From a candidate division WOR-3 bacterium (GTDB lineage Bacteria; Hydrothermota; Tepidihabitantia; Tepidihabitantales; Tepidihabitantaceae): a DNA stretch of 64,000 bases. The stretch lies in the NCBI GenBank assembly GCA_026418295.1, contig JAOABP010000005.1:100864-164863 (forward strand). The letters run 5' to 3'. Shown in pieces: positions 2,061 through 45,882 of this stretch (position 1 is its first letter; each line of letters starts with the position of its first letter). The notes under the pieces were generated by a model. It did no database searches. It had not been told where the DNA came from and saw nothing but the letters and a program-made list of their open reading frames with translations. Position numbers and translations under genes: made by a program.

Positions 2061-2076
2061 GTGAACGATTGTTCAC
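2061..2076. promoter_or_regulatory. Candidate LexA operator (Cheo-type box GTGAAC-GATT-GTTCAC) 13 bp upstream of the lexA start
   Basis: Perfect 16-bp palindrome with a GAAC-N4-GTTC core in the lexA upstream region, located between the radical-SAM gene stop and the lexA start. Confidence 0.6.
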
Positions 2077-2103
2077 CTGTCAAGCAAAAATTTAATATCT
2101 ATC

Positions 2104-2988: not shown

Positions 2989-3078
2989 GGTTATAATTTT
3001 ACTCTTGAAGGAGGCAGTATCAACCCCGGGGTGGTGCTTGTGATTGGGCGAGCAGAGCAGTGAAATCCGGTCTCTGCC

Positions 3079-3106
3079 TTGACCCGTAGTGGAGGCGATT
3101 TAGAAT
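3079..3106 (+). promoter_or_regulatory. Sigma70-like promoter (TTGACC-16-TAGAAT) ending 6 nt before the uvrB ATG, giving a leaderless or near-leaderless mRNA
   Basis: -35 TTGACC at 3079-3084, 16-nt spacer, -10 TAGAAT at 3101-3106, ATG at 3113. There is no SD in between. Confidence 0.45.
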
Positions 3107-3112
3107 ATCCAG

Positions 3113-15413: not shown

Positions 15414-15426
15414 GGGAGGTTCCAAA

Positions 15427-22287: not shown

Positions 22288-22656
22288 TTATGCCTCCAGT
22301 TTAAAATATGATCAAATTTTTCCCGGTTGAATGAATTTTATTTCGGACATCTTGATAATAAATAATACTGGCAGGTGATTTGTCTGTCAAAGTATTTCAT
22401 ATCCCTATATTTTTAGAGTCATAAATCGGACAGAATTTCACATCGGAAAACGGCTGGCATATAGCATTTTCTCCTAACTTCCGGAATGACAAGTGGTTGC
22501 CAATCTGTCTTCGCTCTGAGGCTGGATTTTGGGGGTAGGTCCCGGGGTCATCCCTTTTCCGGGGCGGGGTTTGAGTTTGCCGCCCGGTCCGGTTTCGAGT
22601 TGGGGTACGCACCATGGTATTAGTGGATTTACTCCGTTTCCGGATTATAATTGGGC

Positions 22657-24822
22657 ATGCGCCGGGTTGTATTCGGGCTTTTGTTTGCCGGCTGGGTGCT
22701 GGCTGAGCCGGTGCGTATCGGTCTGGCGCTTTCCGGTGGTGCTGCCCTGGGGCTTGCCCATGTCGGTGTCCTGAAGGTGCTGGAGCGTGAGGGGCTGGAA
22801 TTTGTCGGAATCTCGGGAAACAGCATGGGTTCGCTCGTGGGCGGTGTTTATGCTGCCGGTTACAGCGCCGCTCAGATTGAAAGTATTGCACTGAGCGTTG
22901 ACTGGAACCGGCTTTTCTCCTCGCAGCCCGCCTATGGTGCCCAGTATCTGCAGGAGAAGCAGCAGGCAGAAAGGTATATCCTGCGCCTGCGGCATAACCG
23001 GTTTCTGCCTTATCTGCCGGGCGGGCTGATTCCGCTGCAGAATGTTGAGCTTCTGCTTAACCGGCTCTTGGCTGAGGTCGAGTTTAATACCGGATACGAT
23101 TTTGACCGGCTGCCGGTGCCCTACCGGGCGGTGGCGGTTGACATCCGGGCAGGCAGGAAGGTGGTGTTGAGGTCGGGTCGGCTGGAGCAGGCGATCCGGG
23201 CAAGCATTGCCATTCCCGGGGTTTTTTCGCCTGAGGTGATCGAGGGCCGGGAGCTGGTGGATGGCGGGGTGCTGGATTATCTGCCTGTGACCGCACTGGA
23301 GGATTTTCAGCCCGATTTTGTGATTGCGGTTTTGACGATGCGGCACCAGGAGTCCCCAAACCAGAGTCTGCTGGATATCGCCTCCCGCAGTATTGATCTG
23401 ATGAGCATCGCCAATGTTGAGCGTGCAAAGGAGCAGGCGGATGTGGTCATTGAGCCTGATGTGTCAAGATTTCTTCACTCCGATTTTGCCCGCGCCCGGG
23501 AACTGATTGCTGCCGGGGAGTCGGCAGCGATGCGGGCACTGCCGGTGATCCGGGAGAGGCTCAGGGGCAGGGTGCCGGTGCGGAGCAGAAACCGGATTGA
23601 ACCCCGGTCTGTGCCGGTGGTGCGGCGGGTGGTCTTTGAAGGTCTGAAGCGGACCCGGCGCTCGCTGCTTCTGCCCTATCTGCGCACCCGGGAGGGTGCA
23701 AGGTTGAATTTCGGCCTGCTCCTCGGGGACGTGGAGCGGCTGTTTAATACCGGGCTGTTTGAGGATGTGAATTTCCGGCTGACAGAGGTGACCGCGGAGA
23801 GTGCGGATGTGATCTTTGAGGTTAATGAGCGGCCGTTCGGTTTCTATGCGTTCGGGGTGCGGTATGACAATTATGACAATGTGGTGGTCGGGGCTGAGGT
23901 TGGGGAGGAAAATATTTTGGGTTCGGGCGCAACCGTCCGGGCCGGCGGGGTCGTCGGTAACCCGAATGAGTTCCGACTGGGAATTACGGGCACACGGATT
24001 TTTCAGCTGCCGTTCGGATACCGGATTGACGGTTATATCAGTTCGCTGAACCGGAGTCTGTGGGAGCAGGGCAGGTTCGGTTCCAGTTACTTTGTCCGGG
24101 TGCGGGGGGCAGTGGTGGAGGCGGGTTACAGCACGGGGAGAAATGGTTTTTTCAACTTTGGCGCCCGGGTGGAGCGGATCGGTTATGAGGGTACAGCAGT
24201 GGAGACGCTGGCCGCTGGCTGGCTTGCCGGTCTGCGGGCAAATCTGGAGTTCAATACATTTGACCGGCTGGAGTTGTCCGGCAGAGGACTGGGATACCGG
24301 TTGAGCGGGTTTTATTCCAGCCAAAAGGTACTGAGCCGGTTTGAGTTTCTGAAGACGGAGTTTTCGGGCGAGCAGGTGGTGCCGCTGCTTGACCGCTGGG
24401 CACTGCGCTGGTGGACCGATATCGGGCTGGTGCTGGGCAGACTGCCGTTCAGCGAGCAGTTCCTTTCCGGGGGTGAACGGTTTACCGGTTTTGCACCCGA
24501 GGAGTTTGTGAGTGAACAGCGGGTGATCGCCGGTTCGGCACTGCGGTGGCGGGTGCTGAATCTGCTGAACCGGGATGATTATCCGGTATATCTTGAGGCG
24601 AACGTTAATGCCGGAACCTTTACCCGGCCTGATTCGCTGCTAGTGAGCGACCGGATTGGGGAGCAGTTACACTGGGGCGCGGGTTTTGGTTTGATGACGA
24701 ATACACCGGCAGGACCGCTGAAACTGATTATCGGGCTGGGCAATTTTTTCAAGCGGACGCCCCATCCGGGTGGCGTGCGGATTTACCTTTCTCTCGGTAG
24801 AGAGTTCCGATATCGGCGCTGA
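22657..24822 (+). CDS. Patatin-like phospholipase fused to POTRA plus Omp85-type beta-barrel (PlpD-like, type Vd secretion architecture)
   Basis: Patatin oxyanion-hole and nucleophile motifs (LALSGGAALG, GNSMG, DGG). The C-terminal 400 aa resemble the bacterial surface antigen (BamA/TpsB) barrel and end in an aromatic-rich segment. ATG at 22657 is preferred over the TTG at 22651. Confidence 0.8.
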   Translation: MRRVVFGLLFAGWVLAEPVRIGLALSGGAALGLAHVGVLKVLEREGLEFVGISGNSMGSLVGGVYAAGYSAAQIESIALSVDWNRLFSSQPAYGAQYLQEKQQAERYILRLRHNRFLPYLPGGLIPLQNVELLLNRLLAEVEFNTGYDFDRLPVPYRAVAVDIRAGRKVVLRSGRLEQAIRASIAIPGVFSPEVIEGRELVDGGVLDYLPVTALEDFQPDFVIAVLTMRHQESPNQSLLDIASRSIDLMSIANVERAKEQADVVIEPDVSRFLHSDFARARELIAAGESAAMRALPVIRERLRGRVPVRSRNRIEPRSVPVVRRVVFEGLKRTRRSLLLPYLRTREGARLNFGLLLGDVERLFNTGLFEDVNFRLTEVTAESADVIFEVNERPFGFYAFGVRYDNYDNVVVGAEVGEENILGSGATVRAGGVVGNPNEFRLGITGTRIFQLPFGYRIDGYISSLNRSLWEQGRFGSSYFVRVRGAVVEAGYSTGRNGFFNFGARVERIGYEGTAVETLAAGWLAGLRANLEFNTFDRLELSGRGLGYRLSGFYSSQKVLSRFEFLKTEFSGEQVVPLLDRWALRWWTDIGLVLGRLPFSEQFLSGGERFTGFAPEEFVSEQRVIAGSALRWRVLNLLNRDDYPVYLEANVNAGTFTRPDSLLVSDRIGEQLHWGAGFGLMTNTPAGPLKLIIGLGNFFKRTPHPGGVRIYLSLGREFRYRR

Positions 24823-27403: not shown

Positions 27404-27463
27404 AGCTGATTTTAGTTTCTCCTGAGAGAAATGTCAATCAGCCGCCCTGGGTGATATTCAGAT

Positions 27464-27491
27464 TTGACACCAATCGGGTTCAGGTTAAAAT
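27464..27491 (+). promoter_or_regulatory. Sigma70-like promoter TTGACA-16-TAAAAT ending 9 nt before the ATG of the first outer-membrane protein gene
   Basis: TTGACA at 27464-27469, TAAAAT at 27486-27491, ATG at 27501. Confidence 0.4.
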
Positions 27492-27500
27492 CGTGTAACC

Positions 27501-28319
27501 ATGCGCACGCTCTTGCCCCTGTTTATGTTGCTGGGAATGGCGGTAATGCCGGTTCATGCCCTTTTTGAGGAAAATGCATCAGGTGTCCGGGCAGAGGGGA
27601 TGGGCGGCAGTTTCTGCGCGGTGGCGGATGATCTGAGTGCGCTTGATTTCAATCCTGCCGGGCTTGCCTTTGTTCAGGAGAGACAGTTTCAGAGTTTTTA
27701 CAAACTGCTTTACGGCGGGGTGGGAGTCAATCTGCATACCTTCCATGCCGGTCTGGCACTGCCATTGAGCCGGCTCGGGTGTCTGGCAGGGCGGGTCCAG
27801 GAGACCGGTTTTGAGCTTCAGTCCCAGCGTTCGTTCAAGCTGGGACATGGCTTTTTACTGGCAGATGGGCTGGCATTCGGTTATGGAATCAACGGCTATA
27901 ATTTCGTTCAGCAGGAGCTGGGTTCCGGATATGCCTTTGGCCTGGATGTAAGCCTCTTTGCCCGGCTTGCCCGTTACTGGACCGTTGGGTTTTACGGTCA
28001 TAATATCAACCTGCCGAAAATCGGTTCTTCAGAACTGCCGTCTGTGCTTGTCCTGGGGCTGGGGTTTTCTCCCCGGCAGGGCATTCAATCCTCTCTGCAG
28101 GTGAGCAAGGAGCCCGGGATGCCTACCAGAATTGCTCTGGGGCAGGAGTTTGAGGTTGTGTCCGATTATCTTGTCCTGCGTGCGGGTGTCCAGAATGAAC
28201 CGGTCCGGTTCGCCCTCGGACTGGGTACCGGTTTACGGCGGGTCGGGATTGACTATGCACTGATCACCCATCCGGTTCTGCCTTTTACTCATAACTTCGG
28301 ACTGCGGGTGAAATTTTAG
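27501..28319 (+). CDS. Small outer-membrane beta-barrel protein, FadL/PorV/PorP-SprF-like (N-terminal NPAG hatch motif)
   Basis: Signal peptide. GMGGSFCAVADDLSALDFNPAGLA resembles the N-terminal motif of FadL-like and PorP/SprF-type OM barrels. Amphipathic beta-strand pattern with C-terminal aromatic residue (RVKF). Confidence 0.5.
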   Translation: MRTLLPLFMLLGMAVMPVHALFEENASGVRAEGMGGSFCAVADDLSALDFNPAGLAFVQERQFQSFYKLLYGGVGVNLHTFHAGLALPLSRLGCLAGRVQETGFELQSQRSFKLGHGFLLADGLAFGYGINGYNFVQQELGSGYAFGLDVSLFARLARYWTVGFYGHNINLPKIGSSELPSVLVLGLGFSPRQGIQSSLQVSKEPGMPTRIALGQEFEVVSDYLVLRAGVQNEPVRFALGLGTGLRRVGIDYALITHPVLPFTHNFGLRVKF

Positions 28320-28323
28320 CCTG

Positions 28324-30708
28324 ATGCTGCTGGTTCTTGTCTGGATATTTAACCTGTGGACAGCAGATAATCAGCTGGATATCAACCGGGCAAGCCGGGC
28401 AGAGATCGGTCAGCTGCCGGTTGATTCCCTGACTGCGGACCGGATCTATGAGTATCTCCAGCTTTACGGCCGGTTCAACAGTATCTATGATCTGCTGAAG
28501 GTTCCCGGAATTACCCCTGAGAAACTGGATGAGCTGAAGCCGGTGATTTACATCCGGCCCCGGAGCTGGGAGGAGCGGGCAACAGAGAATATTCAGCGGA
28601 TTCAGCGCCGGCTGGCAGCTGAGGACAGTCCGGGCAGGGCGGTAGTAGAGGAGTGGCAGGATCTGCTGCTGGACCCGCTCAACATTAACCGCGCAACGGT
28701 GGATGAACTGCTGCTGCTGGAGAATGTGTCGCTGGTTGATGCGGTGGCGGTCGTGAATTTCATCCGGCAGGGAGGGAGGATCACGAGCCGTCGGGATCTG
28801 GCGAGTCAGGTTCCGGGTCTTTCAGCATATGGGTATCGCGGGATGCGGAATTATGTGACCTTTCAGGACCGGGCTGATACTGCCCGGGTCAGGATCTGGA
28901 GCGGGAACTACCGGTTGAAATACGAAAGCGGGCAGGACTGGGAGGTGCTTACCAGCACGGAGGAGTTTACCGCAGCATTGAACAGCCTGGTTCAGGACAG
29001 CATCCGGTTCCGGGAGGCTGGGTTTACCGAATCGGAGCTGGCATTTTACCGGGATAGGTTGAGCCAGGAGCTGGATTTTAGAAAAAACATGGGTAATACG
29101 GGAATAATGCGTCACCGGTTACGGGCACGGATTGGTGAGCAGATCCGGGCTGGAGGGTTCGTGGAGCAGAATTTATACGAAAAGGCGGGTTTCAGCGGTG
29201 TCAGGGGTTGTGTGACTGTTGACAAAATCGGTCCGGTCCGACGGCTGCTCGTGGGTGATTACCGGCTGACGCTGGGGCAGGGACTTTTAATCGATAACAA
29301 TTTTGAGCTGATGGCAAGGACGCATAAGCGAACCGCCGGCCTTTTCGCTGATCTGACCGAGAATTCCGGGTTTGGGCTCCGCGGGGCGGCGGTGGATCTG
29401 AAATTAAATCGGTTCGGCTTATTGGGATTTTATTCACTGGCAAAGCGGGACGGGATTCTAAATCCGGACAGCACGGTAAACTGGTATATCCTTTCCACAC
29501 CACGCTACCCGACATTTAAAAATCTATTTAGTCAGACCGATGCCGGAGCCAGCTGGTCCGCTGACCTTTCCCAGCTGGGTTTTCTGCCACTCGGAACGCG
29601 CTTGGGAGTAAACGGTCTTTTTTCCCGTACCAGCCGGAGTCTGCAGCCGGCTGCCCGCTATGTTGAGCTTCCCGGTGATGCGGAGATTATTGATGATCCG
29701 AACTGGGCCCGGCTGGATACGGGCAGAACCCGGCTGTTTTATTCTGCCGATTTCCGGACGGTGATTAACAATTTTGCCCTGGAAGGGGAGGTTGCTCACC
29801 AGCATCGGGGTGGCAGTGCCTATCTGCTGAAGGGTTATCTGCAGCATGATCTGCTGAATCTGACCGTACTTTACCGGCATTATGATGTCAGTTATGTCAA
29901 TCCGTATAACCGCGGGTTCTGTGAGGAGCTGCGGTTTGAGGATACACCGCTGGAAAAGCCCTACCGGCTCATTGACCCGGCGTATGCTGCGCTCCAGAAT
30001 TTCCCGATGCCCAAAGCGGAGCAGGGGTTTTTTGCCGAGATGCGCTATCAGATCTCCCGACAGATTACTTTTACCCGTGCGTATCTTGATGTCTGGCGCA
30101 ACCTTGCCTATGGAGCGGACAATTTCCGGTTTCAGGCGGAAATGGAATACCGCCCGGTTTTCCCACTGCGGCTGCGCTTCCGGCAGAAGGTTCAGTTGAA
30201 GGAGCGGCCGAGGCTGGTGCTGGGCACCGGTTCATTGTCCATGGAGTCCTCACTGCGGGCACTGGTTTCGCTTTCCAACTGGGACTATCTGACTGGCGAA
30301 CTGCGGTACAGCAGAACCCGGCTGACGCCAACGATGAAATACGATGACCGGGCAAGTATTGAGGGCGATTTTCTACTTGTGCAGTGGGAGCACAACTTTT
30401 CGGACGATTTTCAGGGGGAGCTGGGAATTGCCGGCTGGCGCAGCGGCGGCATGTCGAACTGGATGTTTGAGGACAACGGGATTGATTTTGTTGACGGCGA
30501 CGGGTGCAAGTGGTATCTGGCATTGACTAACCGCCTGACCGATAACCTCCTTGTTTACCTCAAGTTCCGGCAGAAGTTAAGCATATTTCCCCATACCGGT
30601 TTGAGTGGAAACGGGGGCGTCCATTATCCGGAAGGCATGCCGGTTCGGGATTTTATGAGTCAGAGCCGGCGGTTTGATATCTGGCTGCAGATTGATTTTC
30701 TCTGGTGA
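28324..30708 (+). CDS. Outer-membrane beta-barrel protein with two N-terminal ComEA-like helix-hairpin-helix DNA-binding domains
   Basis: LDINRASRAEIGQLP…DLLKVPGITPEKLDELKP and LNINRATVDELLLLENVSLVDAVAVVNFIRQGG are ComEA-type HhH motifs. The remaining 600 aa show alternating beta-strand patterns and a C-terminal …IDFLW. 794 aa. Confidence 0.55.
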   Translation: MLLVLVWIFNLWTADNQLDINRASRAEIGQLPVDSLTADRIYEYLQLYGRFNSIYDLLKVPGITPEKLDELKPVIYIRPRSWEERATENIQRIQRRLAAEDSPGRAVVEEWQDLLLDPLNINRATVDELLLLENVSLVDAVAVVNFIRQGGRITSRRDLASQVPGLSAYGYRGMRNYVTFQDRADTARVRIWSGNYRLKYESGQDWEVLTSTEEFTAALNSLVQDSIRFREAGFTESELAFYRDRLSQELDFRKNMGNTGIMRHRLRARIGEQIRAGGFVEQNLYEKAGFSGVRGCVTVDKIGPVRRLLVGDYRLTLGQGLLIDNNFELMARTHKRTAGLFADLTENSGFGLRGAAVDLKLNRFGLLGFYSLAKRDGILNPDSTVNWYILSTPRYPTFKNLFSQTDAGASWSADLSQLGFLPLGTRLGVNGLFSRTSRSLQPAARYVELPGDAEIIDDPNWARLDTGRTRLFYSADFRTVINNFALEGEVAHQHRGGSAYLLKGYLQHDLLNLTVLYRHYDVSYVNPYNRGFCEELRFEDTPLEKPYRLIDPAYAALQNFPMPKAEQGFFAEMRYQISRQITFTRAYLDVWRNLAYGADNFRFQAEMEYRPVFPLRLRFRQKVQLKERPRLVLGTGSLSMESSLRALVSLSNWDYLTGELRYSRTRLTPTMKYDDRASIEGDFLLVQWEHNFSDDFQGELGIAGWRSGGMSNWMFEDNGIDFVDGDGCKWYLALTNRLTDNLLVYLKFRQKLSIFPHTGLSGNGGVHYPEGMPVRDFMSQSRRFDIWLQIDFLW

Positions 30709-30717
30709 GGAGGCACA

Positions 30718-31818
30718 GTGAAATTGAGATTCTGGAAAGTACTGTTCAGCCTACTTGCCGGTGGAACCGGTGCATTTGCCAGTGTGCCGGTGCGAAACTG
30801 GTGGGGCGAGGAGCTGAGTGCTGAACCCTCAGCCATATTCCTTTATCCTTCAAAACTGACGGGTTACCGCGGAGCGGCGGTCTTTGCCGGACTGGGCAGC
30901 AGCATGCTGAGTGAGGAGCGGACCCGGCTGGTGTACGACCAGTTTGAAAATACGATCGGCGAGGCGGCGTATGCGGATAACATCAGCTGGTCGCTGCATT
31001 TCGGACCTTTTGCCGGTGTTTATCGCTGGAGGGGGTTCGGTTTCGGCGCCGGGCTGACACAGGTCCGGGATTTCAGCTATCAGTACCTGAAGGAATATCT
31101 GGACGATTTTTATGTGAAAATCGGTGAGGACCGGGTTGAGCAGTCAGGCGGCATCTGGACCGGAGCGCTTGCGGTCGGATACAGTCCGGTTTCGTGGCTT
31201 GAGATCGGTGCCGGAGGAAGATATCTTTATGGTCAGCGCAGACTGGAACTGGTTCACATCCGGGTGCCGGAGACATCAGCGGTCAGCCTGAAAAGCAGCA
31301 TCAGGGGTGCGGGCTGGCAGGCGGGTGCGGGGTTTGTTTCCCGCGCTGGCTGGAGGGTGGATGCGTGTTACCAGTCTGCGATCCGTTCTGGCAGCGGGGA
31401 TTCAGACACAATCAGGAAGCTGCCCTGGTGTGCCGGTATCGCTGCGGAATTGAATGTCCCGGGTGTACTGCCAGCGAGAATGCTTGCCGAGGCAAAGCTG
31501 TCCGGCTGGTCTGAAGTGGATTCCGGTTTCCGGAATGTGCTGAGCGTGCGGGCGGGGATTGAACACCGGCTGCTCAATCGGGTGCGGATGAGTTACGGGT
31601 TCGGTGTTGACCCGCTCTTTTCCAATTCCGCAGTGCACCGGCTTCTGGGGCGGTTCGGGCTTGGGTTTGATATCAGCCGGCTGCGGCTGGATTTTAATCT
31701 TCAGGCGAGCCGGGAAGAACTTGATGCCGGAGATTTTGCCCTGCCGGTGGAACCGGCAGACATCCGGGTTTATCAGGACCGAATCGGTCTGACGCTTAAT
31801 TTTCGTTATGATATTTAG
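30718..31818 (+). CDS. Hypothetical outer-membrane beta-barrel protein
   Basis: Signal peptide (LLAGGTGAFA), Gly/aromatic-rich alternating strands, C-terminus LTLNFRYDI. Confidence 0.45.
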   Translation: MKLRFWKVLFSLLAGGTGAFASVPVRNWWGEELSAEPSAIFLYPSKLTGYRGAAVFAGLGSSMLSEERTRLVYDQFENTIGEAAYADNISWSLHFGPFAGVYRWRGFGFGAGLTQVRDFSYQYLKEYLDDFYVKIGEDRVEQSGGIWTGALAVGYSPVSWLEIGAGGRYLYGQRRLELVHIRVPETSAVSLKSSIRGAGWQAGAGFVSRAGWRVDACYQSAIRSGSGDSDTIRKLPWCAGIAAELNVPGVLPARMLAEAKLSGWSEVDSGFRNVLSVRAGIEHRLLNRVRMSYGFGVDPLFSNSAVHRLLGRFGLGFDISRLRLDFNLQASREELDAGDFALPVEPADIRVYQDRIGLTLNFRYDI

Positions 31819-31824
31819 GGGCTG

Positions 31825-33363
31825 ATGGAAAGAAGACAGGTGAAGTTCTGCCGTTTCTGGCTGTTTGTCAGTCTGCTGCTGGTCACCAGTACAGCTGATG
31901 CCGGAGTTCAGCATCTGATTATTGTCCATACCAATGATATTCACGGTGCACTCCTCCCGGCTGAGGCTTACTGGCTGGACAACAACTTTCCGCCCCCGCT
32001 GGCTAACGCCGCAGGAGCGCTGACTGTAATTCGGGAGTTGCGGGATTCAGCGGTTCGGCACGGATACGGATTTCTGCTGCTGGATGGTGGTGATATCTTC
32101 AAGGGAACACCGGTAGGGGATTTCACCCGCGGCCAGGCGGTCATCGACTTTTTCCGGCAGGCAGGGTATGATGCGGTTGCGCCCGGCAATCACGATTTTG
32201 ATTTCGGCTGGCAGGTACTGAAGGAGATTGCCGACTCATCACGGATCCCCTGGATTGCCACCAATGTCCGGGTACCGGATGGCGACAGTCCGCCCGGTTA
32301 TCTGAAGCGGAGTCATATCTTTGAGCGTGGCGGTATCAAGATCGGCATCCTGGGGGTTCTGACCAAGTATCTCTACGGTATGGTGAACGAGTCGTTGACG
32401 GGCGGGCTTGATATTCTGCCTTATTATGATGTTGTCCGGGAGGAGGTAGCGAGGCTGCGGGAAGCCGGTGCTGAGATTGTGATTGCGCTGAATCATATCG
32501 GTTACACCCACGATCAGCGGTTTGCCGATTCAGTATCCGGTGTGGATGTGATTATCGGTGCCCACAGCCATACCGGTGTTGAGCCGCCTTATGAGAGTCC
32601 GAAAAACCATGTCATCATCCAGCAGGCGTATTCAAAACTGAGTTCAATCGGGGTGCTGGATATCAGCTTTGACACCGGAAGCCGGCGGATTTTAGGTTAT
32701 CAGGGCCGGTTGATTGATCTGCTCGCCGATGAGGTGCCCATGGATTCTATTTATGCCCGGCGGCTGGATTCAATCCGGCAGGTTGCGGAAAAGGGGTTTG
32801 ACGAGGTTCTGGGGTATGCCCGGCGCGAGCTGACCCGGGGCGGATTTACCGAAACCCCGATGGGCAATCTGATTACCGATGCCATGCGGGAGCGTTTCGG
32901 GACGGAAATTGCGGTGCACAATTCCGCCGGTATCCGGGCAAACATCCCTGCCGGTCCGGTGACCTATCGCCACATTTATCAGGTGGATGTTTTCGGCAAT
33001 ACCGTGGTTACCGGCAGGTACACGGGCAGACAGATCAAGGAGATTCTGGAGGTGTCGGTAAACGGACATCACGCCATCTTTCAGGTTTCAGGGGTGAGAA
33101 TGAAATACACGCTGAACCGGCCGATCGGGAAAAGGGTGCTGTGGGTTGAAGTCAATGGTGCCCCGCTTGACTCGAACCGGATTTATACTCTGGCAACCAA
33201 TTCCTACCTGGCGTCCGGAACCGGTGAATACCACATCTTTGCTGAGGGGGTTGATCTGGAGGACAGCTTTCTGCCGTTGCGCGATGTGCTGGCAGACTAC
33301 ATCCGGCGTCATTCTCCGGTGGATGCCAGAATCGAGGGCAGAATTGTGCTGATTGACCGATGA
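31825..33363 (+). CDS. Bifunctional metallophosphatase/5'-nucleotidase (UshA family), secreted
   Basis: Signal peptide. Calcineurin-like phosphoesterase motifs (HTNDIHG, GGDIFKG, GNHDFD) and a 5'-nucleotidase C-terminal domain. 512 aa. Confidence 0.85.
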   Translation: MERRQVKFCRFWLFVSLLLVTSTADAGVQHLIIVHTNDIHGALLPAEAYWLDNNFPPPLANAAGALTVIRELRDSAVRHGYGFLLLDGGDIFKGTPVGDFTRGQAVIDFFRQAGYDAVAPGNHDFDFGWQVLKEIADSSRIPWIATNVRVPDGDSPPGYLKRSHIFERGGIKIGILGVLTKYLYGMVNESLTGGLDILPYYDVVREEVARLREAGAEIVIALNHIGYTHDQRFADSVSGVDVIIGAHSHTGVEPPYESPKNHVIIQQAYSKLSSIGVLDISFDTGSRRILGYQGRLIDLLADEVPMDSIYARRLDSIRQVAEKGFDEVLGYARRELTRGGFTETPMGNLITDAMRERFGTEIAVHNSAGIRANIPAGPVTYRHIYQVDVFGNTVVTGRYTGRQIKEILEVSVNGHHAIFQVSGVRMKYTLNRPIGKRVLWVEVNGAPLDSNRIYTLATNSYLASGTGEYHIFAEGVDLEDSFLPLRDVLADYIRRHSPVDARIEGRIVLIDR

Positions 33364-34982
33364 AAATCTGGCAGTTGAAACCGGCGGACGAAAGGCAGAT
33401 TCAGAGTGTGGCCGAGGGTTGTGGTATTTCCCGGGAGTTTGCCCGGATGCTGGTCGTGCGGGGGGTTACGACCAGAGATGATGTGCGTATCTGGCTGAAC
33501 CCGCGTCTCTCCGATCTCCATCCCAGCGAGCTCCTGCCGGATTTCGATGCCGCAGTGCACCGGATTCAGCAGGCGATCGCTCACCGGGAGCGGATTCTGG
33601 TCTGGGGGCATGATGACCTGGACGGGATCACCGCGGTTCTGGTCATGGTGAAGGTGCTGAGCAGTCTGCAGGCGAATGTTGATTATCATATTCCGGTAAA
33701 GGGCAGGGATAAGCATGGACTTGATGCCCGGCTGGTGGCAGGTCTGCCGGCAGAAAGGAAACCGGGGCTGATCATCACGGTTGACTGCGGAATTTCCAAT
33801 CACAGCGATATTGCCGAGCTGAGACAGCAGGGGGTGGAGGTGATCGTCACAGATCATCATGAGGTGGTCATGCCTTTGCCGCCAGCGCTGGCGGTAGTGG
33901 ATCCGAAGCGCAGTGACAGCGAATATCCCTACGGACAGCTGACCGGTGCGGGCGTGGCACTGAAGCTGATGATGGGACTGGTGGCACACCGGCTCGGATT
34001 GAGCGTCACTCAGTTTGTTTCCGCTCAGCCGGAGCTGCTGGAGCTGGTGACACTGGGGACGGTGGCTGACCGGGCGCCCCTGACCGGTGAAAACCGCATT
34101 CTGGTGAAGCTGGGGTTTGACCGGCTGATGAAGACCAGGCTGCCGGCGCTGCGCGCGGTGCTGGACAATCTGAGAGAGGGGAATGAACCGTTGACGGTAT
34201 CAACATTTCTTACCGAGCTGCTGCCGCTGTTTGCCGCGGCGAACGGCAGTGAAGGGGTGAGGAAATTTCTTTCCCGGGATCTGGCGGAAGTGCAGGCGTG
34301 GGTGAAAGAATTGACAGTCCGCAGTCAGGAGTGGCGGCAGGAGGCGGAAAGGACATTTCAGCTGGCACAGGCGCATGTCCGGCTCGGTGACGGCATTCTG
34401 TTCGTTCAGCATCCGGAGCTCTCGCTCCGGGCGCTGGGTTTCAGTGCGGCACGGTTGAAGGACCGGTATCAGGTGCCGGCAATTGTCATCGGCCGGCGGG
34501 ATGATGTCTGGGTCGGGGAGTGCCGGGGTATTGAGGGCGTGGATCTGATGGAGCTTTTGCGTGCCCACCGCAACTTCTTTATTGATTTCGGCGGGCACAA
34601 GAAGGCAGCCGGATTTACCATCAGCCCGGACCGGGTGGATGAGTTCATTGTTTCGGCAGAGCGATTCGCCCACGAAAACTTTGCCGGCAGAATCATGCCG
34701 GAGAATCAGCTGACGGCAGATGCTGAGCTGCCACTTTCCCGGTTCAATACTGAGATCTGCCGGCTGGCACCGTTTGGGGAAGGTAACCCGGAACCGGTTC
34801 TGATTTCCGAGCCGGTCCGCCTGATTCCCCAAGAGAAGGGATTTGTGCCTGAGACCCGCCCGGATTTGATCCTTTGCTGCCGTCGGGGCGGCATGGAGAT
34901 TCAGCCGGAGATTTCTTATTCGGTACTGTATTCCGTTGATGACCTGTGCCGGCTCTGGCTCGTTGATCTTCAGCCCGTATAA
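33360..34982 (+). CDS. recJ: Single-stranded-DNA-specific exonuclease RecJ (DHH/DHHA1 family)
   Basis: DHH motifs (HDDLDGITA, ITVDCG, DHH) and DHHA1 (GGHKKAAG). 540 aa. Start overlaps the upstream stop (ATGA). Confidence 0.75.
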   Translation: MKIWQLKPADERQIQSVAEGCGISREFARMLVVRGVTTRDDVRIWLNPRLSDLHPSELLPDFDAAVHRIQQAIAHRERILVWGHDDLDGITAVLVMVKVLSSLQANVDYHIPVKGRDKHGLDARLVAGLPAERKPGLIITVDCGISNHSDIAELRQQGVEVIVTDHHEVVMPLPPALAVVDPKRSDSEYPYGQLTGAGVALKLMMGLVAHRLGLSVTQFVSAQPELLELVTLGTVADRAPLTGENRILVKLGFDRLMKTRLPALRAVLDNLREGNEPLTVSTFLTELLPLFAAANGSEGVRKFLSRDLAEVQAWVKELTVRSQEWRQEAERTFQLAQAHVRLGDGILFVQHPELSLRALGFSAARLKDRYQVPAIVIGRRDDVWVGECRGIEGVDLMELLRAHRNFFIDFGGHKKAAGFTISPDRVDEFIVSAERFAHENFAGRIMPENQLTADAELPLSRFNTEICRLAPFGEGNPEPVLISEPVRLIPQEKGFVPETRPDLILCCRRGGMEIQPEISYSVLYSVDDLCRLWLVDLQPV

Positions 34983-34987: not shown

Positions 34988-36154
34988 GTGTCCCCGGCAA
35001 AAATTTCAATTACCCGCCGGAAATCGGCACGGGGCCATCTCTGGGTGTTCGCGGATGAGATCAGAAAAATTGAGGGGGAGCCTGAGAAAGGTGATCTGGT
35101 CCGGGTATATGAGCAGGGCAGGCTGATCGGTTCCGGGATGTTCAATCCTGATTCGCTGATCCGGGTCCGGCTTTACTCATTTCGGGATGAGGATCTGGAT
35201 GAGGAGCTGCTGATACAGCGGTTGACGGCAGCGCATCGGCGGCGCCAGCAGAAACTGCCTCAGGAACAGGATTTCCGGCTGGTATTCGGAGAGAGTGATT
35301 TTCTGCCCGGACTGGTGATCGACAAGTATGGTGATCACTTTGCGGTTCAGGTCTATGCTGCGGGCTTTGACCGCCGCATCGAAATGGTGGTCAGTGCGCT
35401 GTGCCGGCTGTTTCCGGTAAAGGCGATCTATGAGAAGGATGACATCAAGCTCCGGGAGCCCGAAGGGCTGGAGCGCCGGGAACGGCTGCTATACGGTCAG
35501 CCCGACCCGGACCTCATCATCTCGGAGAACGGTGTCCGGTTCTATGTGGACATCGCCGGCGGGCAGAAGACCGGTTATTTCTTTGACCACCGGCTCACCC
35601 GCAGGAAGGTCCGGCGTCTGGCACGAAACCGCCGGGTGCTGGATGTGTTCTGCTACACCGGCTCTTTTGCAATCAATGCGGCACTGGGCGGGGCAACCGA
35701 GGTGATTGCGGTTGATATTTCGTCCGAAGCCTGCCGCTGGGCAGAGCGTAACGCCCGCCTGAACGGAGTTGAGGGCAGGTGCCGGTTTGTCACCGCCGAT
35801 GCCTTTGAATACCTGCAGGAACTGCTGGCATGCGGTGAGCGGTTTGACCTGGTCAATCTTGATCCGCCCGCATTTATCAAGAGCCAGAAGCAGAAGCCGT
35901 CCGGGATCAAGGGATATGAGAAGATCAACCGGCTGGCACTGGCACTGCTGAAACCCGGCGGGATTCTGGTTTCTTCATCCTGTTCCCATTATCTGTTCTG
36001 GCAGGACCTGCTGGATGTGGTCAGTAATGCCGCCGCAGAACTTAACCGGCAGTTTGTCATCCTTGACCGTTCCACTCAGGGGCCGGATCATCCGGTTCTG
36101 CCGCAGATGCCCGAATCCGAATACCTGCGCTGTCTCATTGTTCAGGTGAATTAG
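34988..36154 (+). CDS. Class I SAM-dependent rRNA (cytosine-C5) methyltransferase, RlmI/RlmK-like, with N-terminal PUA domain
   Basis: PUA-like N-terminus, SAM-binding LDVFCYTGSFA, and DPPAF catalytic motif. 388 aa. Confidence 0.75.
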   Translation: MSPAKISITRRKSARGHLWVFADEIRKIEGEPEKGDLVRVYEQGRLIGSGMFNPDSLIRVRLYSFRDEDLDEELLIQRLTAAHRRRQQKLPQEQDFRLVFGESDFLPGLVIDKYGDHFAVQVYAAGFDRRIEMVVSALCRLFPVKAIYEKDDIKLREPEGLERRERLLYGQPDPDLIISENGVRFYVDIAGGQKTGYFFDHRLTRRKVRRLARNRRVLDVFCYTGSFAINAALGGATEVIAVDISSEACRWAERNARLNGVEGRCRFVTADAFEYLQELLACGERFDLVNLDPPAFIKSQKQKPSGIKGYEKINRLALALLKPGGILVSSSCSHYLFWQDLLDVVSNAAAELNRQFVILDRSTQGPDHPVLPQMPESEYLRCLIVQVN

Positions 36155-36620: not shown

Positions 36621-36648
36621 TTGACTTGTGACCTTGCTGGTTTATCAT
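36621..36648 (+). promoter_or_regulatory. Sigma70-like promoter TTGACT-16-TATCAT, 11 nt upstream of the hdrC ATG (short-leader transcript of the hdr super-operon)
   Basis: TTGACT at 36621-36626, TATCAT at 36643-36648, ATG at 36660. No SD in between. Confidence 0.4.
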
Positions 36649-36659
36649 TTTTTCTTAGC

Positions 36660-37052
36660 ATGAGTTCACAGGACAACTCCCAGCTTGTTTCCCAAATTGA
36701 AGAGTTGAGCGGTCAGCGAGTCAGTGACTGTTACCAGTGCGGATGCTGTACTGCGGGCTGTCCGGTCGGCGAGCTGATGGACCCGCCGCCGAGCCGGGCG
36801 ATCCGGCTGCTGCAGCTGGGCCGGGCGCAGGAGCTTTTGGCAAGTGAAGGTATCTGGGTGTGTGCGAGCTGTCTCGTGTGCGGGACCCGCTGTCCGCGCA
36901 ATGTGGATTATGCCAAAATTGCCGAGGCGTGCCGGGCACTGATTCTGCGGGCAAAGCGGAGTCAGGTTGATCCCGATGTGGTGGATGATCAGGACCTGCA
37001 GGATGTGCCTCAGCAGGCATTTATCGCCAGTTTCCGGAAGTTTTCGGTATGA
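36660..37052 (+). CDS. hdrC: Heterodisulfide reductase subunit C-like (2x[4Fe-4S])
   Basis: CYQCGCCTAGCP and CASCLVCGTRCP motifs. The ATG at 36660 is preferred over the upstream TTG, which lies inside the -35 box. Confidence 0.8.
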   Translation: MSSQDNSQLVSQIEELSGQRVSDCYQCGCCTAGCPVGELMDPPPSRAIRLLQLGRAQELLASEGIWVCASCLVCGTRCPRNVDYAKIAEACRALILRAKRSQVDPDVVDDQDLQDVPQQAFIASFRKFSV

Positions 37053-37906
37053 AATATCCCTACTATCCAGGCTGTACCCTTTATTCCAAGGCAAGGAATC
37101 TTGACCGGTGCGGCCGGCTCGCAGCGGCGCGGGCCGGTTTTGAGCTTGAGGAGCTGCCCTCGTGGAACTGCTGTGGCGCAATTTACAACACCAATACTGA
37201 TGATCTGGCAGCTCAGGTCGGACCGGTTCGCGTGCTGGCCAAGGCAAGTCAGCAGGGCAGACGGCTGGTGACCCTGTGCGCCGCCTGTTACAATGTGCTG
37301 AAGCGGGCAAATGAGCGACTCCATGCCACCGGTTTTGAGCAGGACCGGCAGCGGATTCTGGAGTTTGTTGATGAGCCGTTTGAGCAGGATGTTGAGGTTG
37401 TGCATTACCTTGAGGTGCTCAAGGAGCTGGGCTGGGATGCGATCCGGCAGCGGGTGGTGCGTTCGCTGAACGGTCTGAAGGTGGCATCCTACTACGGCTG
37501 TCTGATGGTGAGACCCAGGGAGGTGCTGAAGTTTGACGATCCGGAGAACCCGGTGGTGATGGATGAGCTGATGGCGACATTGGGGGGAGAGCCGGTGCGG
37601 TTTGATTTCAAGGCGGAGTGCTGTGGCGGGTATCTGGTGATAAACCGCCGGGCGGTTGCCGATGCCTGTTCCCTGCGGGTGGTGGAGAATGCCCGGACCT
37701 GGGGAGCGGAGGCAATTGTGACCACCTGTCCGCTCTGCCAGTACAATCTGGAGAGCGCCCAGTTGCGCCGGGGAACGGTATTGACGCCGGTTTTTTATTT
37801 CACTCAGATTCTCGGTCTGGCGCTGGGACTGGAGCCGGCAGAGCTGGGCTTTGAGGATAACAAACTGGACCCGGTGCCGTTTCTGAAGGAGAAGGGGCTC
37901 TTGTGA
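37049..37906 (+). CDS. hdrB: Heterodisulfide reductase subunit B-like (two CCG domains)
   Basis: Two Cys-rich CCG motifs (NCCGAIYN, CCGGYL with flanking Cys). ATGA overlap with hdrC. Confidence 0.85.
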   Translation: MKYPYYPGCTLYSKARNLDRCGRLAAARAGFELEELPSWNCCGAIYNTNTDDLAAQVGPVRVLAKASQQGRRLVTLCAACYNVLKRANERLHATGFEQDRQRILEFVDEPFEQDVEVVHYLEVLKELGWDAIRQRVVRSLNGLKVASYYGCLMVRPREVLKFDDPENPVVMDELMATLGGEPVRFDFKAECCGGYLVINRRAVADACSLRVVENARTWGAEAIVTTCPLCQYNLESAQLRRGTVLTPVFYFTQILGLALGLEPAELGFEDNKLDPVPFLKEKGLL

Positions 37907-44285: not shown

Positions 44286-44319
44286 AAGGCAAATCTTGGT
44301 GCGCGGCAGGAGGTGACAG

Positions 44320-44739
44320 ATGAGCTTTGAACCCAAAATTGTTGGTTTTCTCTGTAACTGGTGCACCTATGCGGGTGCGGATCTGGCAGGAACTTCACGG
44401 CTCCAGTATCCGCCGAATATGCGGCCGATCCGTGTGATGTGTTCCGGGGCGGTGGATTCGGTTTACATCCTCCGGGCACTGCTGGAAGGGGCAGATGGGG
44501 TCTTCATCGGCGGTTGTCATCCGGGTGACTGCCATTATGTTTCCGGTAACTACAAGACCAGGCGCCGGATGGTGCTGTTCAATTCAATCATGCGGGCGCT
44601 CGGGCTGGATGAAGGGCGGGTGCTATTGCGCTGGATATCCGCTGCAGAGGGTAAGAAATTTGCCGATACGGTAACGGAGATGACTGAGCGGTTGCGTCAG
44701 CTCGGTCCCAGTCCGTTCCGGAAGCTGTGGGAGGTGTGA
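44320..44739 (+). CDS. mvhD: MvhD/FlxD-like methyl-viologen-reducing hydrogenase delta subunit homolog ([2Fe-2S] electron-transfer subunit)
   Basis: IVGFLCNWCTYAGADLAG…CSGAVDSVYILRALLEGADGVFIGGCHPGDCHY is the MvhD signature. SD AGGAGGTG lies upstream. Confidence 0.85.
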   Translation: MSFEPKIVGFLCNWCTYAGADLAGTSRLQYPPNMRPIRVMCSGAVDSVYILRALLEGADGVFIGGCHPGDCHYVSGNYKTRRRMVLFNSIMRALGLDEGRVLLRWISAAEGKKFADTVTEMTERLRQLGPSPFRKLWEV

Positions 44740-44740
44740 T

Positions 44741-45880: not shown

Positions 45881-45882
45881 TC

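What the first reader, a model, noticed from the sequence alone, without database searches (positions are those of the whole stretch)
27501..34982. Co-directional cluster of three outer-membrane barrels, secreted 5'-nucleotidase and RecJ: candidate extracellular DNA capture and scavenging module
Six plus-strand genes are packed with 5-10 nt gaps or overlaps. They encode a FadL/PorP-like small OMP, an OMP with two ComEA-type HhH DNA-binding domains, another OMP, a signal-peptide-bearing UshA-family 5'-nucleotidase and RecJ ssDNA exonuclease (followed by rlmI). A surface DNA-binding barrel, a nucleotide-dephosphorylating exoenzyme and an ssDNA exonuclease in one transcriptional unit suggest a DNA uptake or DNA-as-nutrient pathway not matching known competence loci.
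Basis: inference. Interest (0 to 1): 0.65.

Follow-up and report, generated by a model that had tools for sequence, protein, structure and literature searches.

The report
Outer-membrane DNA/nucleotide scavenging operon
An uncultured WOR-3 bacterium carries a conserved operon in which an uncharacterised large outer-membrane pore, fused to two ComEA-like DNA-binding-type domains, sits between two small helper barrels next to a secreted 5'-nucleotidase; in related phyla the same genes are joined by surface DNA-binding proteins and nucleases, so it is most likely a new kind of machine for taking up outside DNA or nucleotides.

Summary
Six tightly packed + strand genes (gaps 4, 9 and 6 nt, a 4-nt overlap, then 5 nt) encode:
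- g1, a PorV/PorQ-like small barrel
- g2, a 794-aa protein with two HHH_3 domains and a predicted 24-strand barrel
- g3, a FadL-fold barrel
- g4, a signal-peptide 5'-nucleotidase
- g5 RecJ and g6 RlmI

The HhH-barrel is not a fusion artefact. It is full length in 208 species-level genomes of FCB candidate phyla.

Linkage is graded across 80 related loci:
- g1 next to g2: 70/71
- g3: 54/71
- a 5'-nucleotidase or metallophosphatase: 43/54
- RecJ adjacent: only in the window's own clade (13/14), and within 10 kb in 4/8 of a sister group
- RlmI: only in the window's clade

In distant relatives the gene upstream of g1 is a T9SS surface protein with OB-fold, DUF5689 or LTD domains (30/33). DUF5689 is the predicted DNA-binding partner in the Bacteroides Ddb and Riemerella transformation systems. 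NucT-like PLD nucleases, a secreted PHP hydrolase and ABC importer genes also appear.

Best reading: a Ddb-like nucleic-acid and nucleotide acquisition module built on a non-TonB HhH-fused barrel. RecJ is loosely attached and RlmI is a passenger. No function has been tested experimentally. This is a new variant of a known kind.

The parts
27464..27491 (+). Sigma-70-like promoter candidate (TTGACA-16-TAAAAT, 11/12) for the operon. It is paired with a divergent site for mnmG at 27437-27409.
   Evidence: The -10 element ends 9 nt before the g1 ATG, so the mRNA is either leaderless or the site is a misprediction.
27501..28319 (+). g1: small outer-membrane barrel, PorV/PorQ-like (FadL superfamily), 272 aa, with a signal-like N-terminus.
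   Evidence: NCBIfam PorV_fam E 8e-10 over residues 26-272, 38.7 bits against a cut-off of 90. Adjacent to g2 in 70/71 related loci.
28324..30708 (+). g2: HhH-barrel protein, 794 aa. It has a short signal-like N-terminus, tandem ComEA/EEPD1-type HhH_3 domains, and a predicted 24-strand beta-barrel ending in ...DFLW.
28369..28557 (+). g2 HhH_3 domain 1 (residues 16-78). Net charge is near neutral to acidic. Hairpins read LPVDS and VPGIT instead of the canonical GIG.
   Evidence: Pfam HHH_3, alignment to ComEA and EEPD1, charge analysis.
28675..28863 (+). g2 HhH_3 domain 2 (residues 118-180). Basic (pI about 9.7). It contains the family-invariant residues V135, S136, D139, A140, G165, L166, G170 and R175.
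28897..30705 (+). g2 barrel (residues 192-794): 24 predicted strands, with a 59-residue acidic helical insert between strands 1 and 2.
   Evidence: AF2 pLDDT 78, pTM 0.74. Only generic barrel matches in the PDB; the best is the 24-strand FimD usher, TM below 0.31 normalised to the query.
30718..31818 (+). g3: FadL-fold barrel, 366 aa, with a signal-like N-terminus.
   Evidence: AF2 pLDDT 85. Foldseek matches FadL, TodX and BamG at TM 0.60-0.67. UniRef names it PorV/PorQ family. Follows g2 in 54/71 loci.
31825..33363 (+). g4: secreted (probably periplasmic) 5'-nucleotidase-family metallophosphatase, 512 aa. No T9SS C-terminal domain and no lipobox.
   Evidence: Pfam Metallophos + 5_nucleotid_C. 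PDB 2z1a E 1e-53. The metal motifs DxH, GD, GNHD and GAHSH are readable in the translation. A homologue lies downstream of g2 in 43/54 loci.
33360..34982 (+). g5: RecJ-family 5'-3' ssDNA exonuclease, 540 aa, no signal peptide. It overlaps the g4 stop by 4 nt.
   Evidence: TIGR00644 332 bits against a cut-off of 397. PDB RecJ E 2e-48. Motifs HDDLDG, DCG, DHH and GGH are readable. Adjacent only in the window's clade (13/14).
34988..36154 (+). g6: RlmI-like 23S rRNA m5C methyltransferase. Probably co-transcribed as a passenger gene.
   Evidence: Present downstream only in the window's clade (10/10, against 0/31 elsewhere).

Best explanation
g1-g4 form a conserved outer-membrane module for acquiring extracellular nucleic acid or nucleotides. 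It is a Ddb-like DNA-utilisation locus of the uncultured FCB phyla, built on a different transporter.

Proposed mechanism (inferred, not shown):
- g2 forms a wide 24-strand channel in the outer membrane.
- Its two N-terminal ComEA/EEPD1-type HhH domains hang in the periplasm and hold incoming DNA or oligonucleotide. This gives inward bias without TonB or a pilus.
- The FadL/PorV-like barrels g1 and g3 are accessory subunits, as PorV, PorQ and BamG are in their complexes. In relatives they probably dock the T9SS-anchored surface proteins encoded beside them: OB-fold/DUF5689/LTD DNA binders, and a PHP hydrolase that has its own PorQ-like barrel.
- Nucleases cut the polymer. These are NucT-like PLD enzymes in some lineages; none is encoded in this window.
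- The periplasmic 5'-nucleotidase g4 removes the 5'-phosphate, so that nucleosides and phosphate can cross the inner membrane.
- In the window's clade the surface-binder gene is not adjacent. RecJ and RlmI have been appended to the 3' end of the operon. RecJ, being cytoplasmic, could degrade any imported single strand, or it may be only a neighbour. RlmI is unrelated.

Shown here: gene order, domain content, the family-wide fusion, the conserved linkage and the predicted folds.
Inferred: DNA binding, the topology of g2, complex formation, the substrate, and the direction of transport.
For: - Tight packing, with a single upstream promoter-like site.
- g1-g2 adjacent in 70/71 loci, g3 in 54/71, and a 5'-nucleotidase or metallophosphatase in 43/54. 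The loci span WOR-3, Edwardsbacteria, TA06, Cloacimonadota, Latescibacterota, Fermentibacteria/Aegiribacteria and Stahlbacteria, with g2 identity down to 33%.
- An even more divergent 884-aa member keeps the order HhH-barrel, PorV-like barrel, 5'-nucleotidase.
- A T9SS-CTD protein homologous to the OB-fold/DUF5689/LTD reference set lies immediately upstream of g1 in 37/59 loci, and in 30/33 of the most distant group. In the representatives scanned, these proteins carry OB-fold (PF01336), DUF5689 and/or LTD domains. Two of them match the first ~110 positions of the ExeM/NucH extracellular-nuclease model.
- DUF5689 is the DdbD / RA0C_RS04920 family. It is the predicted DNA-binding partner (AlphaFold model and fold similarity to a DNA-binding domain, not assayed) of the outer-membrane transporter in the Bacteroides DNA-utilisation locus, which is required for DNA depletion. 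It is also essential for Riemerella natural transformation, which additionally needs a separate HhH protein.
- PLDc_2 proteins of about 185 aa, with signal-like N-termini and NucT similarity, lie between g3 and the phosphatase gene in 6 loci by the strict count, plus a seventh (L077) seen.
- A T9SS-secreted CehA/PHP metallohydrolase with its own PorV/PorQ-family barrel follows the 5'-nucleotidase in 8/50 loci.
- ABC importer components are adjacent in several loci.
- The g2 N-terminus aligns across both HhH units with the tandem HhH of the nuclease-family protein EEPD1 (E 4e-9) and with ComEA. HhH2 is basic in most members.
- g4 is a complete 5'-nucleotidase with its metal motifs.
Against: - No experiment exists for any member of the family.
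- The window's own locus has no surface DNA binder and no nuclease outside the cytoplasm. tblastn with the relatives' proteins finds none in the 64 kb.
- The HhH hairpins have lost the canonical G-I-G glycines, and HhH1 is acidic. HhH_3-like folds are not always DNA binders (own knowledge: PsbU).
- 5'-nucleotidase-family enzymes also act on UDP-sugars, NAD and, in the case of SoxB, thiosulfate adducts. The family match alone does not fix the substrate.
- The genome carries de novo purine genes (purB, and the start of purF), so nucleotide scavenging is not obligatory.
- g1 and the small PorQ-like barrels could be ordinary T9SS attachment parts.
- Model coordinates could not be inspected, so the periplasmic placement of the HhH domains rests on strand parity and loop lengths only.
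Confidence: 0.55

Rival explanations
1. Natural-transformation uptake. The g1-g3 complex is the outer-membrane entry port of a pilus-independent competence system, like the one in Riemerella. It feeds DNA to ComEC for recombination rather than for food.
For: The Riemerella system needs exactly three kinds of part: a DUF5689 surface protein, an outer-membrane barrel and an HhH protein. In this family the barrel and the HhH part are fused, and the DUF5689/OB gene is adjacent in relatives. The PLD proteins resemble NucT, a nuclease family connected with DNA transfer in Helicobacter (reference list seen).
Against: The most constant partner is a 5'-nucleotidase (43/54). Further hydrolases and ABC importers join the locus, which points to catabolism. 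Loss of RecJ raises transformability in Synechocystis, as cited in PMC3597990, so a co-transcribed RecJ argues against preserving incoming DNA. No comEC, comF or dprA appears in the window's annotations. The rest of the genome was not seen.
Confidence: 0.15
2. T9SS cargo-attachment module. g1, g3 and the extra PorQ-like barrels anchor neighbouring T9SS-CTD proteins to the cell surface. g2 is a structural hub whose HhH domains mediate protein contacts. On this reading nothing is imported through g2.
For: g1 and the 264-293 aa barrels match PorV/PorQ models. Each sits directly after a CTD-bearing gene in relatives. The g3 fold equals that of FadL and BamG, and BamG is a docking subunit for a surface lipoprotein. 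The most conserved stretch of the g2 N-terminus is the acidic linker (residues 94-118), which suggests a protein interface.
Against: The window's clade keeps g1-g3 with no adjacent CTD gene (0/14). A 24-strand barrel is far larger than an anchor needs. The periplasmic 5'-nucleotidase has no CTD, yet it is the steadiest partner. This reading does not explain the tandem ComEA-type domains.
Confidence: 0.15
3. Mostly coincidental neighbourhood. The genes are unrelated envelope and housekeeping genes that happen to be co-directional.
For: RlmI, and largely RecJ, are joined only in one clade. RecJ and RlmI are cytoplasmic housekeeping enzymes.
Against: The g1-g2-g3-phosphatase order persists down to 33% g2 identity in at least seven candidate phyla, and in a still more divergent member. 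Chance does not give that.
Confidence: 0.05
4. Surface eDNA adhesin for biofilm. The HhH domains are exposed and tether the cell to extracellular DNA.
For: The protein carries HhH DNA-binding-type domains, and neighbours in relatives have LTD and OB surface domains.
Against: Strand parity (24 strands, short turns on the side of the C-terminus) puts the N-terminus in the periplasm. One relative has periplasm-type TPR repeats fused before the HhH units. The link to hydrolases fits consumption rather than adhesion.
Confidence: 0.05

Closest known systems
Bacteroidales DNA-utilisation locus ddbABCDEF, and the related Riemerella anatipestifer natural-transformation genes RA0C_RS04915, RA0C_RS04920 and RA0C_RS02645 (bioRxiv 10.1101/2025.03.18.642099; PMC8459023)
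   Same: It is a PUL-like logic for DNA within the FCB superphylum. The shared parts are a surface DUF5689 protein predicted to bind DNA (present beside g1 in relatives), an outer-membrane barrel, secreted or periplasmic nucleases, and an HhH protein needed for uptake in Riemerella.
   Different: The transporter is different. DdbC and RS04915 are TonB-dependent-type barrels. g2 has no plug, TonB-receptor or CarboxypepD_reg match at E<=0.01, and it carries the HhH domains itself. The surface proteins are T9SS-CTD cargo, not lipoproteins. Two FadL-like barrels are added. A 5'-nucleotidase is the constant enzyme. The window's locus lacks both the DUF5689 gene and the nucleases.
ComEA, the periplasmic DNA receptor of Gram-negative competence (Vibrio, Neisseria)
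   Same: HHH_3 domains of the ComEA type. The proposed role is holding DNA in the periplasm as it enters.
   Different: ComEA is a small soluble or anchored protein that works with the PilQ secretin and a retracting pilus. Here two degenerate HhH units are fused to a 600-residue barrel. The ComEA equivalog cut-offs are not reached (38.9 against 152 bits).
EEPD1, a eukaryotic protein with tandem HhH domains and an EEP nuclease-family domain (PDB 9yi2)
   Same: It is the best sequence match in the PDB. It covers both HhH units and their spacing (E 4e-9).
   Different: There is no EEP domain in g2. The partner domain is a membrane barrel.
UshA-type periplasmic 5'-nucleotidases used for growth on nucleotides and eDNA as a phosphate source (Vibrio cholerae, PMC4714964, title and abstract only; Shewanella, own knowledge); Bacillus subtilis YhcR, which combines OB-fold, nuclease and 5'-nucleotidase (own knowledge)
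   Same: g4 has the same two-domain enzyme architecture, a signal-like N-terminus and the metal motifs. The pairing of OB-fold DNA binders with a 5'-nucleotidase recurs.
   Different: g4 is not a UshA orthologue (176 against 600 bits). It sits in an operon with three barrels. Its substrate has not been tested.
FadL-superfamily accessory barrels of FCB bacteria: PorV and PorQ (T9SS), and BamG (Bacteroidota BAM; PMC12611786)
   Same: g3 has the FadL/BamG fold. g1 matches the PorV/PorQ model. All of these are small barrels that serve as docking subunits for surface proteins within larger outer-membrane complexes.
   Different: The scores are below the family cut-offs. g1 (272 aa) is much shorter than PorV or PorQ. 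There is no evidence here of a link to SprA, PorU or PorZ.

Membership tests
ComEA family (g2) | HHH_3 (PF12836) DNA-binding domain | tested here: met
   56.3 bits against the gathering score of 27, with two stretches.
ComEA family (g2) | Reaches the curated ComEA model cut-offs (TIGR01259, TIGR00426) | tested here: not met
   38.9 against 152.35 bits, and 34.7 against 53.1 bits.
ComEA family (g2) | Canonical G-h-G hairpins and a basic surface | tested here: inconclusive
   The hairpins read VDS, GIT, NVS and GLS. HhH1 is acidic to neutral and HhH2 is basic.
ComEA family (g2) | Binds DNA | not testable with these tools
   This needs EMSA or fluorescence anisotropy with residues 16-180.
Ddb-type DNA-utilisation locus | TonB-dependent-type outer-membrane transporter (DdbC) | tested here: not met
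   g2 has no TonB_dep_Rec, Plug or CarboxypepD_reg hit at E<=0.01. It is predicted to have 24 strands, with the best fold hits being ushers.
Ddb-type DNA-utilisation locus | Adjacent DUF5689 surface protein (DdbD) | tested here: not met
   Absent from the window and from its clade (0/14). Present beside g1 in 37/59 related loci.
Ddb-type DNA-utilisation locus | Secreted or periplasmic nucleases in the locus | tested here: not met
   None in the window. NucT-like PLD proteins occur in 6 of the 54 relatives that could be assessed, and PHP/CehA hydrolases in 8 of 50.
PorV/PorQ family (g1) | Reaches the NF033709 cut-off | tested here: not met
   38.7 against 90 bits. The match does span residues 26-272.
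FadL-fold 14-strand barrel (g3) | Fold similarity to FadL, TodX and BamG | tested here: met
   Foldseek E 1e-13, TM 0.60-0.67.
FadL-fold 14-strand barrel (g3) | Pfam Toluene_X or NCBIfam BamG score above the cut-off | tested here: not met
   No Pfam hit. BamG scores 20.7 against 250 bits.
5'-nucleotidase / UshA family (g4) | Metallophos + 5_nucleotid_C architecture with the metal-binding motifs | tested here: met
   138 and 38.4 bits, both above the gathering scores. Full-length match to 2z1a. The motifs are read from the translation.
5'-nucleotidase / UshA family (g4) | UshA equivalog score | tested here: not met
   175.9 against 600 bits. g4 is a family member, not an orthologue.
RecJ (g5) | DHH + DHHA1 domains with the catalytic motifs | tested here: met
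   The motifs are readable.
RecJ (g5) | TIGR00644 trusted cut-off | tested here: not met
   332.1 against 396.9 bits. The OB domain matches only partially.
Canonical competence locus | comEC, comF, dprA, pilQ or pilins nearby | tested here: not met
   None among the Pfam-annotated genes that cover most of the window. The rest of the genome was not seen.

The most novel reading that the evidence does not exclude
The g2 family is a third route for DNA across a Gram-negative outer membrane. It would be a 24-strand channel independent of TonB and of pili, with its own built-in ComEA-like periplasmic ratchet. It would be flanked by FadL-like barrels that dock T9SS-displayed OB-fold/DUF5689 DNA receptors and hydrolases, forming a 'DNA utilisome' that is widespread in uncultured FCB phyla.
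Probability: 0.3. Interest if true: 0.85.

Novelty: new variant of a known kind. Interest (0 to 1): 0.62.

Why it matters
Extracellular DNA is a large pool of phosphorus, nitrogen and carbon in sediments and hot springs, which are the habitats of WOR-3 and its relatives. How DNA crosses the outer membrane without a type IV pilus or a TonB-dependent transporter is not known.

If the reading is right, it would have three consequences:
- It would define a new family of outer-membrane transporters, of roughly 100 clusters at 50% identity, none of them characterised.
- It would extend the newly described Ddb and Riemerella paradigm beyond the Bacteroidota.
- It would give a genomic marker for DNA-foraging capacity in uncultured lineages.

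It would also give a concrete, testable protein for asking whether a tethered ComEA-type domain can drive uptake on its own.

Tried and rejected
- Foldseek against the PDB gave only generic barrels for g2.
- Model coordinates are not exposed. The pore lumen, the plug and the placement of the HhH domains could not be inspected.
- tblastn of the relatives' OB/DUF5689, LTD, PLD, PHP-CTD, small-barrel and ABC proteins against the window found only the g4 and g5 counterparts and one CTD tail.
- Pairwise BLAST of g1 against g3, and of g1 against the PorQ-like 293-aa barrel, showed no significant similarity. I do not call them paralogues.
- Rfam found no riboswitch or other RNA in the region.
- A literature search combining HhH, PorV, outer membrane and nucleotidase found nothing relevant.
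- Context look-ups for two very divergent members returned contigs that were short or carried no informative neighbours.
- The weak BamG hit for g3 was followed up. It reflects only the shared FadL fold.
- A role for the two large T9SS beta-propeller proteins upstream in the window was considered and dropped. They have no nucleic-acid-related domains.

Full report
**Source and observation**

The window is part of a 94-kb metagenome contig (JGI 3300025161). Its proteins are 93% identical (g2) to those of a MAG named candidate division WOR-3.

g1 to g2 are separated by 4 nt, g2 to g3 by 9 nt and g3 to g4 by 6 nt. g4 and g5 overlap by 4 nt, and g5 to g6 are separated by 5 nt.

A strong sigma-70-like site (TTGACA-16-TAAAAT) lies at 27464-27491, in the 97-nt divergent gap to mnmG. 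There is no convincing terminator inside the cluster, and the next good promoter-like site is at 36621. The -10 element ends only 9 nt before the g1 ATG, so either the transcript is leaderless or the site is a misprediction. The same six-gene order occurs on 13 contigs that carry the identical g2 protein.

**What the six proteins are**

- **g1 (272 aa)** matches the NCBIfam PorV/PorQ model over nearly its whole length. The score is below the cut-off (E 8e-10, 38.7 against 90 bits).
- **g2 (794 aa)** has two HHH_3 units. Its N-terminal 180 residues align across both units with the tandem HhH region of EEPD1 (E 4e-9) and with ComEA structures.
- An AlphaFold2 model of g2, built on 25 homologues (pLDDT 78, pTM 0.74), gives 24 beta-strands from residue 192 to the C-terminal ...DFLW. 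Foldseek against the PDB returns only generic barrels. The best is the 24-strand FimD usher, at low TM.
- **g3 (366 aa)** has no Pfam hit, but its model (pLDDT 85) has the FadL fold (TM 0.60-0.67 to FadL, TodX and BamG).
- **g4 (512 aa)** is a complete two-domain 5'-nucleotidase-family enzyme. Its best solved relative is the Thermus 5'-nucleotidase (E 1e-53, full length). The metal motifs are readable, there is a signal-like N-terminus, and there is no T9SS C-terminal domain.
- **g5** is a RecJ-family exonuclease (solved RecJ structures at E 2e-48; all DHH motifs present; slightly below the TIGR00644 cut-off). It has no signal peptide.
- **g6** is an RlmI-like rRNA methyltransferase.

The descriptive part of the finding is therefore correct. 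The only adjustment is that g1 is PorV/PorQ-like rather than PorP-like.

**Is the HhH-barrel a fusion artefact?**

No. Homologues align from end to end, with invariant residues in both halves. A scan of one genome per species found 208 relatives, of which the best 80 were kept.

A profile search of 1.8 billion cluster representatives found about 130 at E<1e-30. The thousands of weaker hits are presumably other HhH proteins, but this was not examined. Ten of ten very divergent members still start with HHH_3. The fusion defines the family.

**Conservation of the neighbourhood**

I called ORFs in the 80 genome loci and searched them with the window's proteins. Only loci with enough flanking DNA were counted for each gene.

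| Feature | All loci | g2 identity >=49% (window's clade) | g2 identity 39-49% | g2 identity <39% |
|---|---|---|---|---|
| g1 directly upstream of g2 | 70/71 | 18/18 | 13/13 | 39/40 |
| g3 directly downstream of g2 | 54/71 | 18/18 | 12/13 | 24/40 |
| 5'-nucleotidase or shorter metallophosphatase within 5 kb downstream | 43/54 | 15/15 | 11/11 | 17/28 |
| RecJ adjacent to the phosphatase gene | 13/50 | 13/14 | 0/11 | 0/25 |
| RecJ-like DHH gene within 10 kb | 14/41 | 10/10 | 4/8 | 0/23 |
| RlmI within 10 kb | 10/41 | 10/10 | 0/8 | 0/23 |

The loci come from WOR-3, Edwardsbacteria, TA06, Cloacimonadota, Latescibacterota, Fermentibacteria/Aegiribacteria and Stahlbacteria. g2 identity goes down to 33%.

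A still more divergent 884-aa member keeps the order HhH-barrel, PorV-like barrel, 5'-nucleotidase.

The 39-49% group with a nearby RecJ-like gene is Edwardsbacteria and TA06. In the Edwardsbacteria-type loci two genes lie between the phosphatase and the RecJ-like gene; in the TA06 locus it lies several genes further downstream.

**What joins the module elsewhere**

This is the most informative result.

- *Surface DNA binders.* In 37/59 loci, and in 30/33 of the most distant group, the gene immediately upstream of g1 is homologous to a reference set of T9SS C-terminal-domain proteins from these loci. In the representatives scanned, these carry an OB-fold nucleic-acid-binding domain, DUF5689 and/or a lamin-tail domain. 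Two representatives match the first ~110 positions of the ExeM/NucH extracellular-nuclease model.
- *What DUF5689 is.* It is the family of DdbD and of Riemerella RA0C_RS04920. DdbD is the predicted surface DNA-binding partner of the transporter DdbC in the Bacteroides thetaiotaomicron ddbABCDEF locus. That prediction rests on an AlphaFold model and on fold similarity to a DNA-binding domain. The locus is required for depletion of exogenous DNA. The Riemerella homologues are essential for natural transformation, together with a separate HhH protein.
- *Nucleases.* Proteins of about 185 aa with a PLDc_2 domain, signal-like N-termini and similarity to nuclease NucT lie between g3 and the phosphatase gene. 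This holds in six loci by the strict count, and a seventh (L077) appears.
- *A secreted hydrolase.* A T9SS-secreted CehA/PHP-family metallohydrolase follows the 5'-nucleotidase in 8/50 loci. It starts with the LHxHTxxSDG motif and has its own PorV/PorQ-family barrel, which in one case scores above the curated cut-off.
- *Importers.* Solute-binding proteins, permeases and a MalK-like ATPase are adjacent in several loci.

None of these extra genes is in the window. In the window's clade the surface-binder gene is never adjacent (0/14).

**Topology of g2**

With 24 strands and the usual C-terminal aromatic signal, the last strand ends in the periplasm. Counting back, every short 2-4-residue turn falls on the periplasmic side and the long loops fall outside. 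That places the N-terminus, and hence the HhH domains, in the periplasm. It also places the 59-residue acidic helical insert between strands 1 and 2 on the outer side or inside the lumen (inference).

One relative carries TPR repeats in front of the HhH units. This arrangement is typical of periplasmic extensions of outer-membrane barrels such as PgaA and BcsC (own knowledge).

I could not inspect the coordinates, so this remains an inference.

The HhH hairpins have lost the canonical G-I-G glycines. HhH1 is neutral to acidic, while HhH2 is basic in most members and holds the invariant residues. DNA binding is plausible but not assured.

**Most likely mechanism (confidence about 0.55)**

g1-g4 form an outer-membrane module for acquiring extracellular nucleic acid or nucleotides. 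It is a functional analogue of the Ddb loci.

- g2 is the channel, and its periplasmic ComEA-type domains retain incoming polymer.
- g1 and g3 are docking subunits, in the manner of PorV, PorQ and BamG.
- g4 dephosphorylates the resulting 5'-mononucleotides, so that nucleosides and phosphate can be imported.
- A catabolic fate is favoured over recombination. The steadiest partner is a nucleotidase, and the accessory genes are hydrolases and importers.
- RecJ is cytoplasmic. Its linkage is restricted to the window's clade and, more loosely, to one sister group.
- RecJ might degrade imported single strands. A review cites work showing that loss of RecJ raises transformability in Synechocystis. 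From my own knowledge, Palchevskiy and Finkel reported that ssDNA exonucleases including RecJ are needed by E. coli to use DNA as a nutrient. Equally, RecJ may be a housekeeping neighbour.
- RlmI is a passenger.

**Rival readings**

- Natural-transformation uptake (0.15). The parallel with Riemerella supports it. The hydrolase-rich context and the co-transcribed RecJ argue against it.
- A T9SS cargo-attachment complex with no import role (0.15). The repeated pairing of a CTD gene with a PorV/PorQ-like barrel supports it. The 24-strand size, the retention of g1-g3 without any CTD neighbour, and the nucleotidase link argue against it.
- Surface eDNA adhesin (0.05).
- Coincidence (0.05), which is refuted for g1-g4.

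**Caveats**

- No member of the family has been studied experimentally.
- The window's own locus is a reduced version, without a binder or a nuclease.
- The genome has de novo purine genes.
- 5'-nucleotidase-family enzymes have other substrates.
- Signal peptides were read by eye.
- The record labels of MAGs may be imprecise; one locus is labelled Bacteroidales.

**Comparison with known systems, and novelty**

The concept of a locus for using exogenous DNA in the FCB superphylum is known from 2021 and 2025 work. The membership tests fail for the defining transporter: there is no TonB-dependent-type barrel. In this window they also fail for the DUF5689 partner and for the nucleases.

The HhH-fused 24-strand barrel family, with its two FadL-like companions, is uncharacterised as far as my searches show. 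I therefore rate this a new variant of a known kind, with interest 0.62.

The most novel reading not excluded is a TonB-independent and pilus-independent DNA channel with a built-in ComEA ratchet (probability about 0.3).

Noticed in passing
window 22651-24822 (+): A single 723-aa protein fuses a patatin-like phospholipase domain to a POTRA domain and an Omp85 barrel (PlpD-like architecture). It lies two genes upstream of the cluster.
   Followed up: partly
window 12480-15413 and 15397-18747 (+); 18733-20226 (-): Two beta-propeller (Kelch/SBBP) proteins of about 1000 aa carry T9SS C-terminal sorting domains. Next to them is a 497-aa protein with a weak Peptidase_C25 match; C25 is the family of the T9SS sortase PorU. 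None has a nucleic-acid-related domain.
   Followed up: partly
window 36621-49570 (+): A long heterodisulfide-reductase-like cluster starts after a 466-nt gap downstream of rlmI. It has CCG and 4Fe-4S proteins, large FAD/NAD(P) oxidoreductases including a fusion protein of about 1500 aa, and an FlpD/MvhD-like gene.
   Followed up: no
L034 9889-13653: In one Edwardsbacteria MAG the HhH-barrel and the following FadL-like barrel read as a single 1254-aa ORF. This is either a real fusion or an assembly frameshift.
   Followed up: no
P0098 (1251 aa): A family member carries about 430 extra N-terminal residues, including TPR repeats, in front of the HhH units. This is consistent with a periplasmic N-terminus.
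   Followed up: partly
L092 8001-13787: A very divergent 884-aa HhH-barrel is still followed by a PorV-like 475-aa protein and a 557-aa 5'-nucleotidase. It has no g1 upstream; rmuC lies on the opposite strand instead.
   Followed up: partly
window 217-5140 and 9888-11183: The left end of the window holds a LexA-like S24 peptidase paired with a Y-family polymerase, and also uvrB and purB. The start of purF lies just beyond the window's left end on the same contig. The organism therefore has de novo purine genes.
   Followed up: no
window 27409-27491: Two back-to-back 11/12 sigma-70-like promoter matches sit in the 97-nt mnmG/g1 divergent gap. The one facing g1 ends 9 nt before the ATG, with no Shine-Dalgarno sequence, which suggests a leaderless transcript.
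   Followed up: partly
window 52752-54788 (+): This gene encodes a Na/Pi cotransporter fused to PhoU domains. It is a possible inner-membrane route for phosphate released by g4, but it is not linked to the cluster.
   Followed up: no
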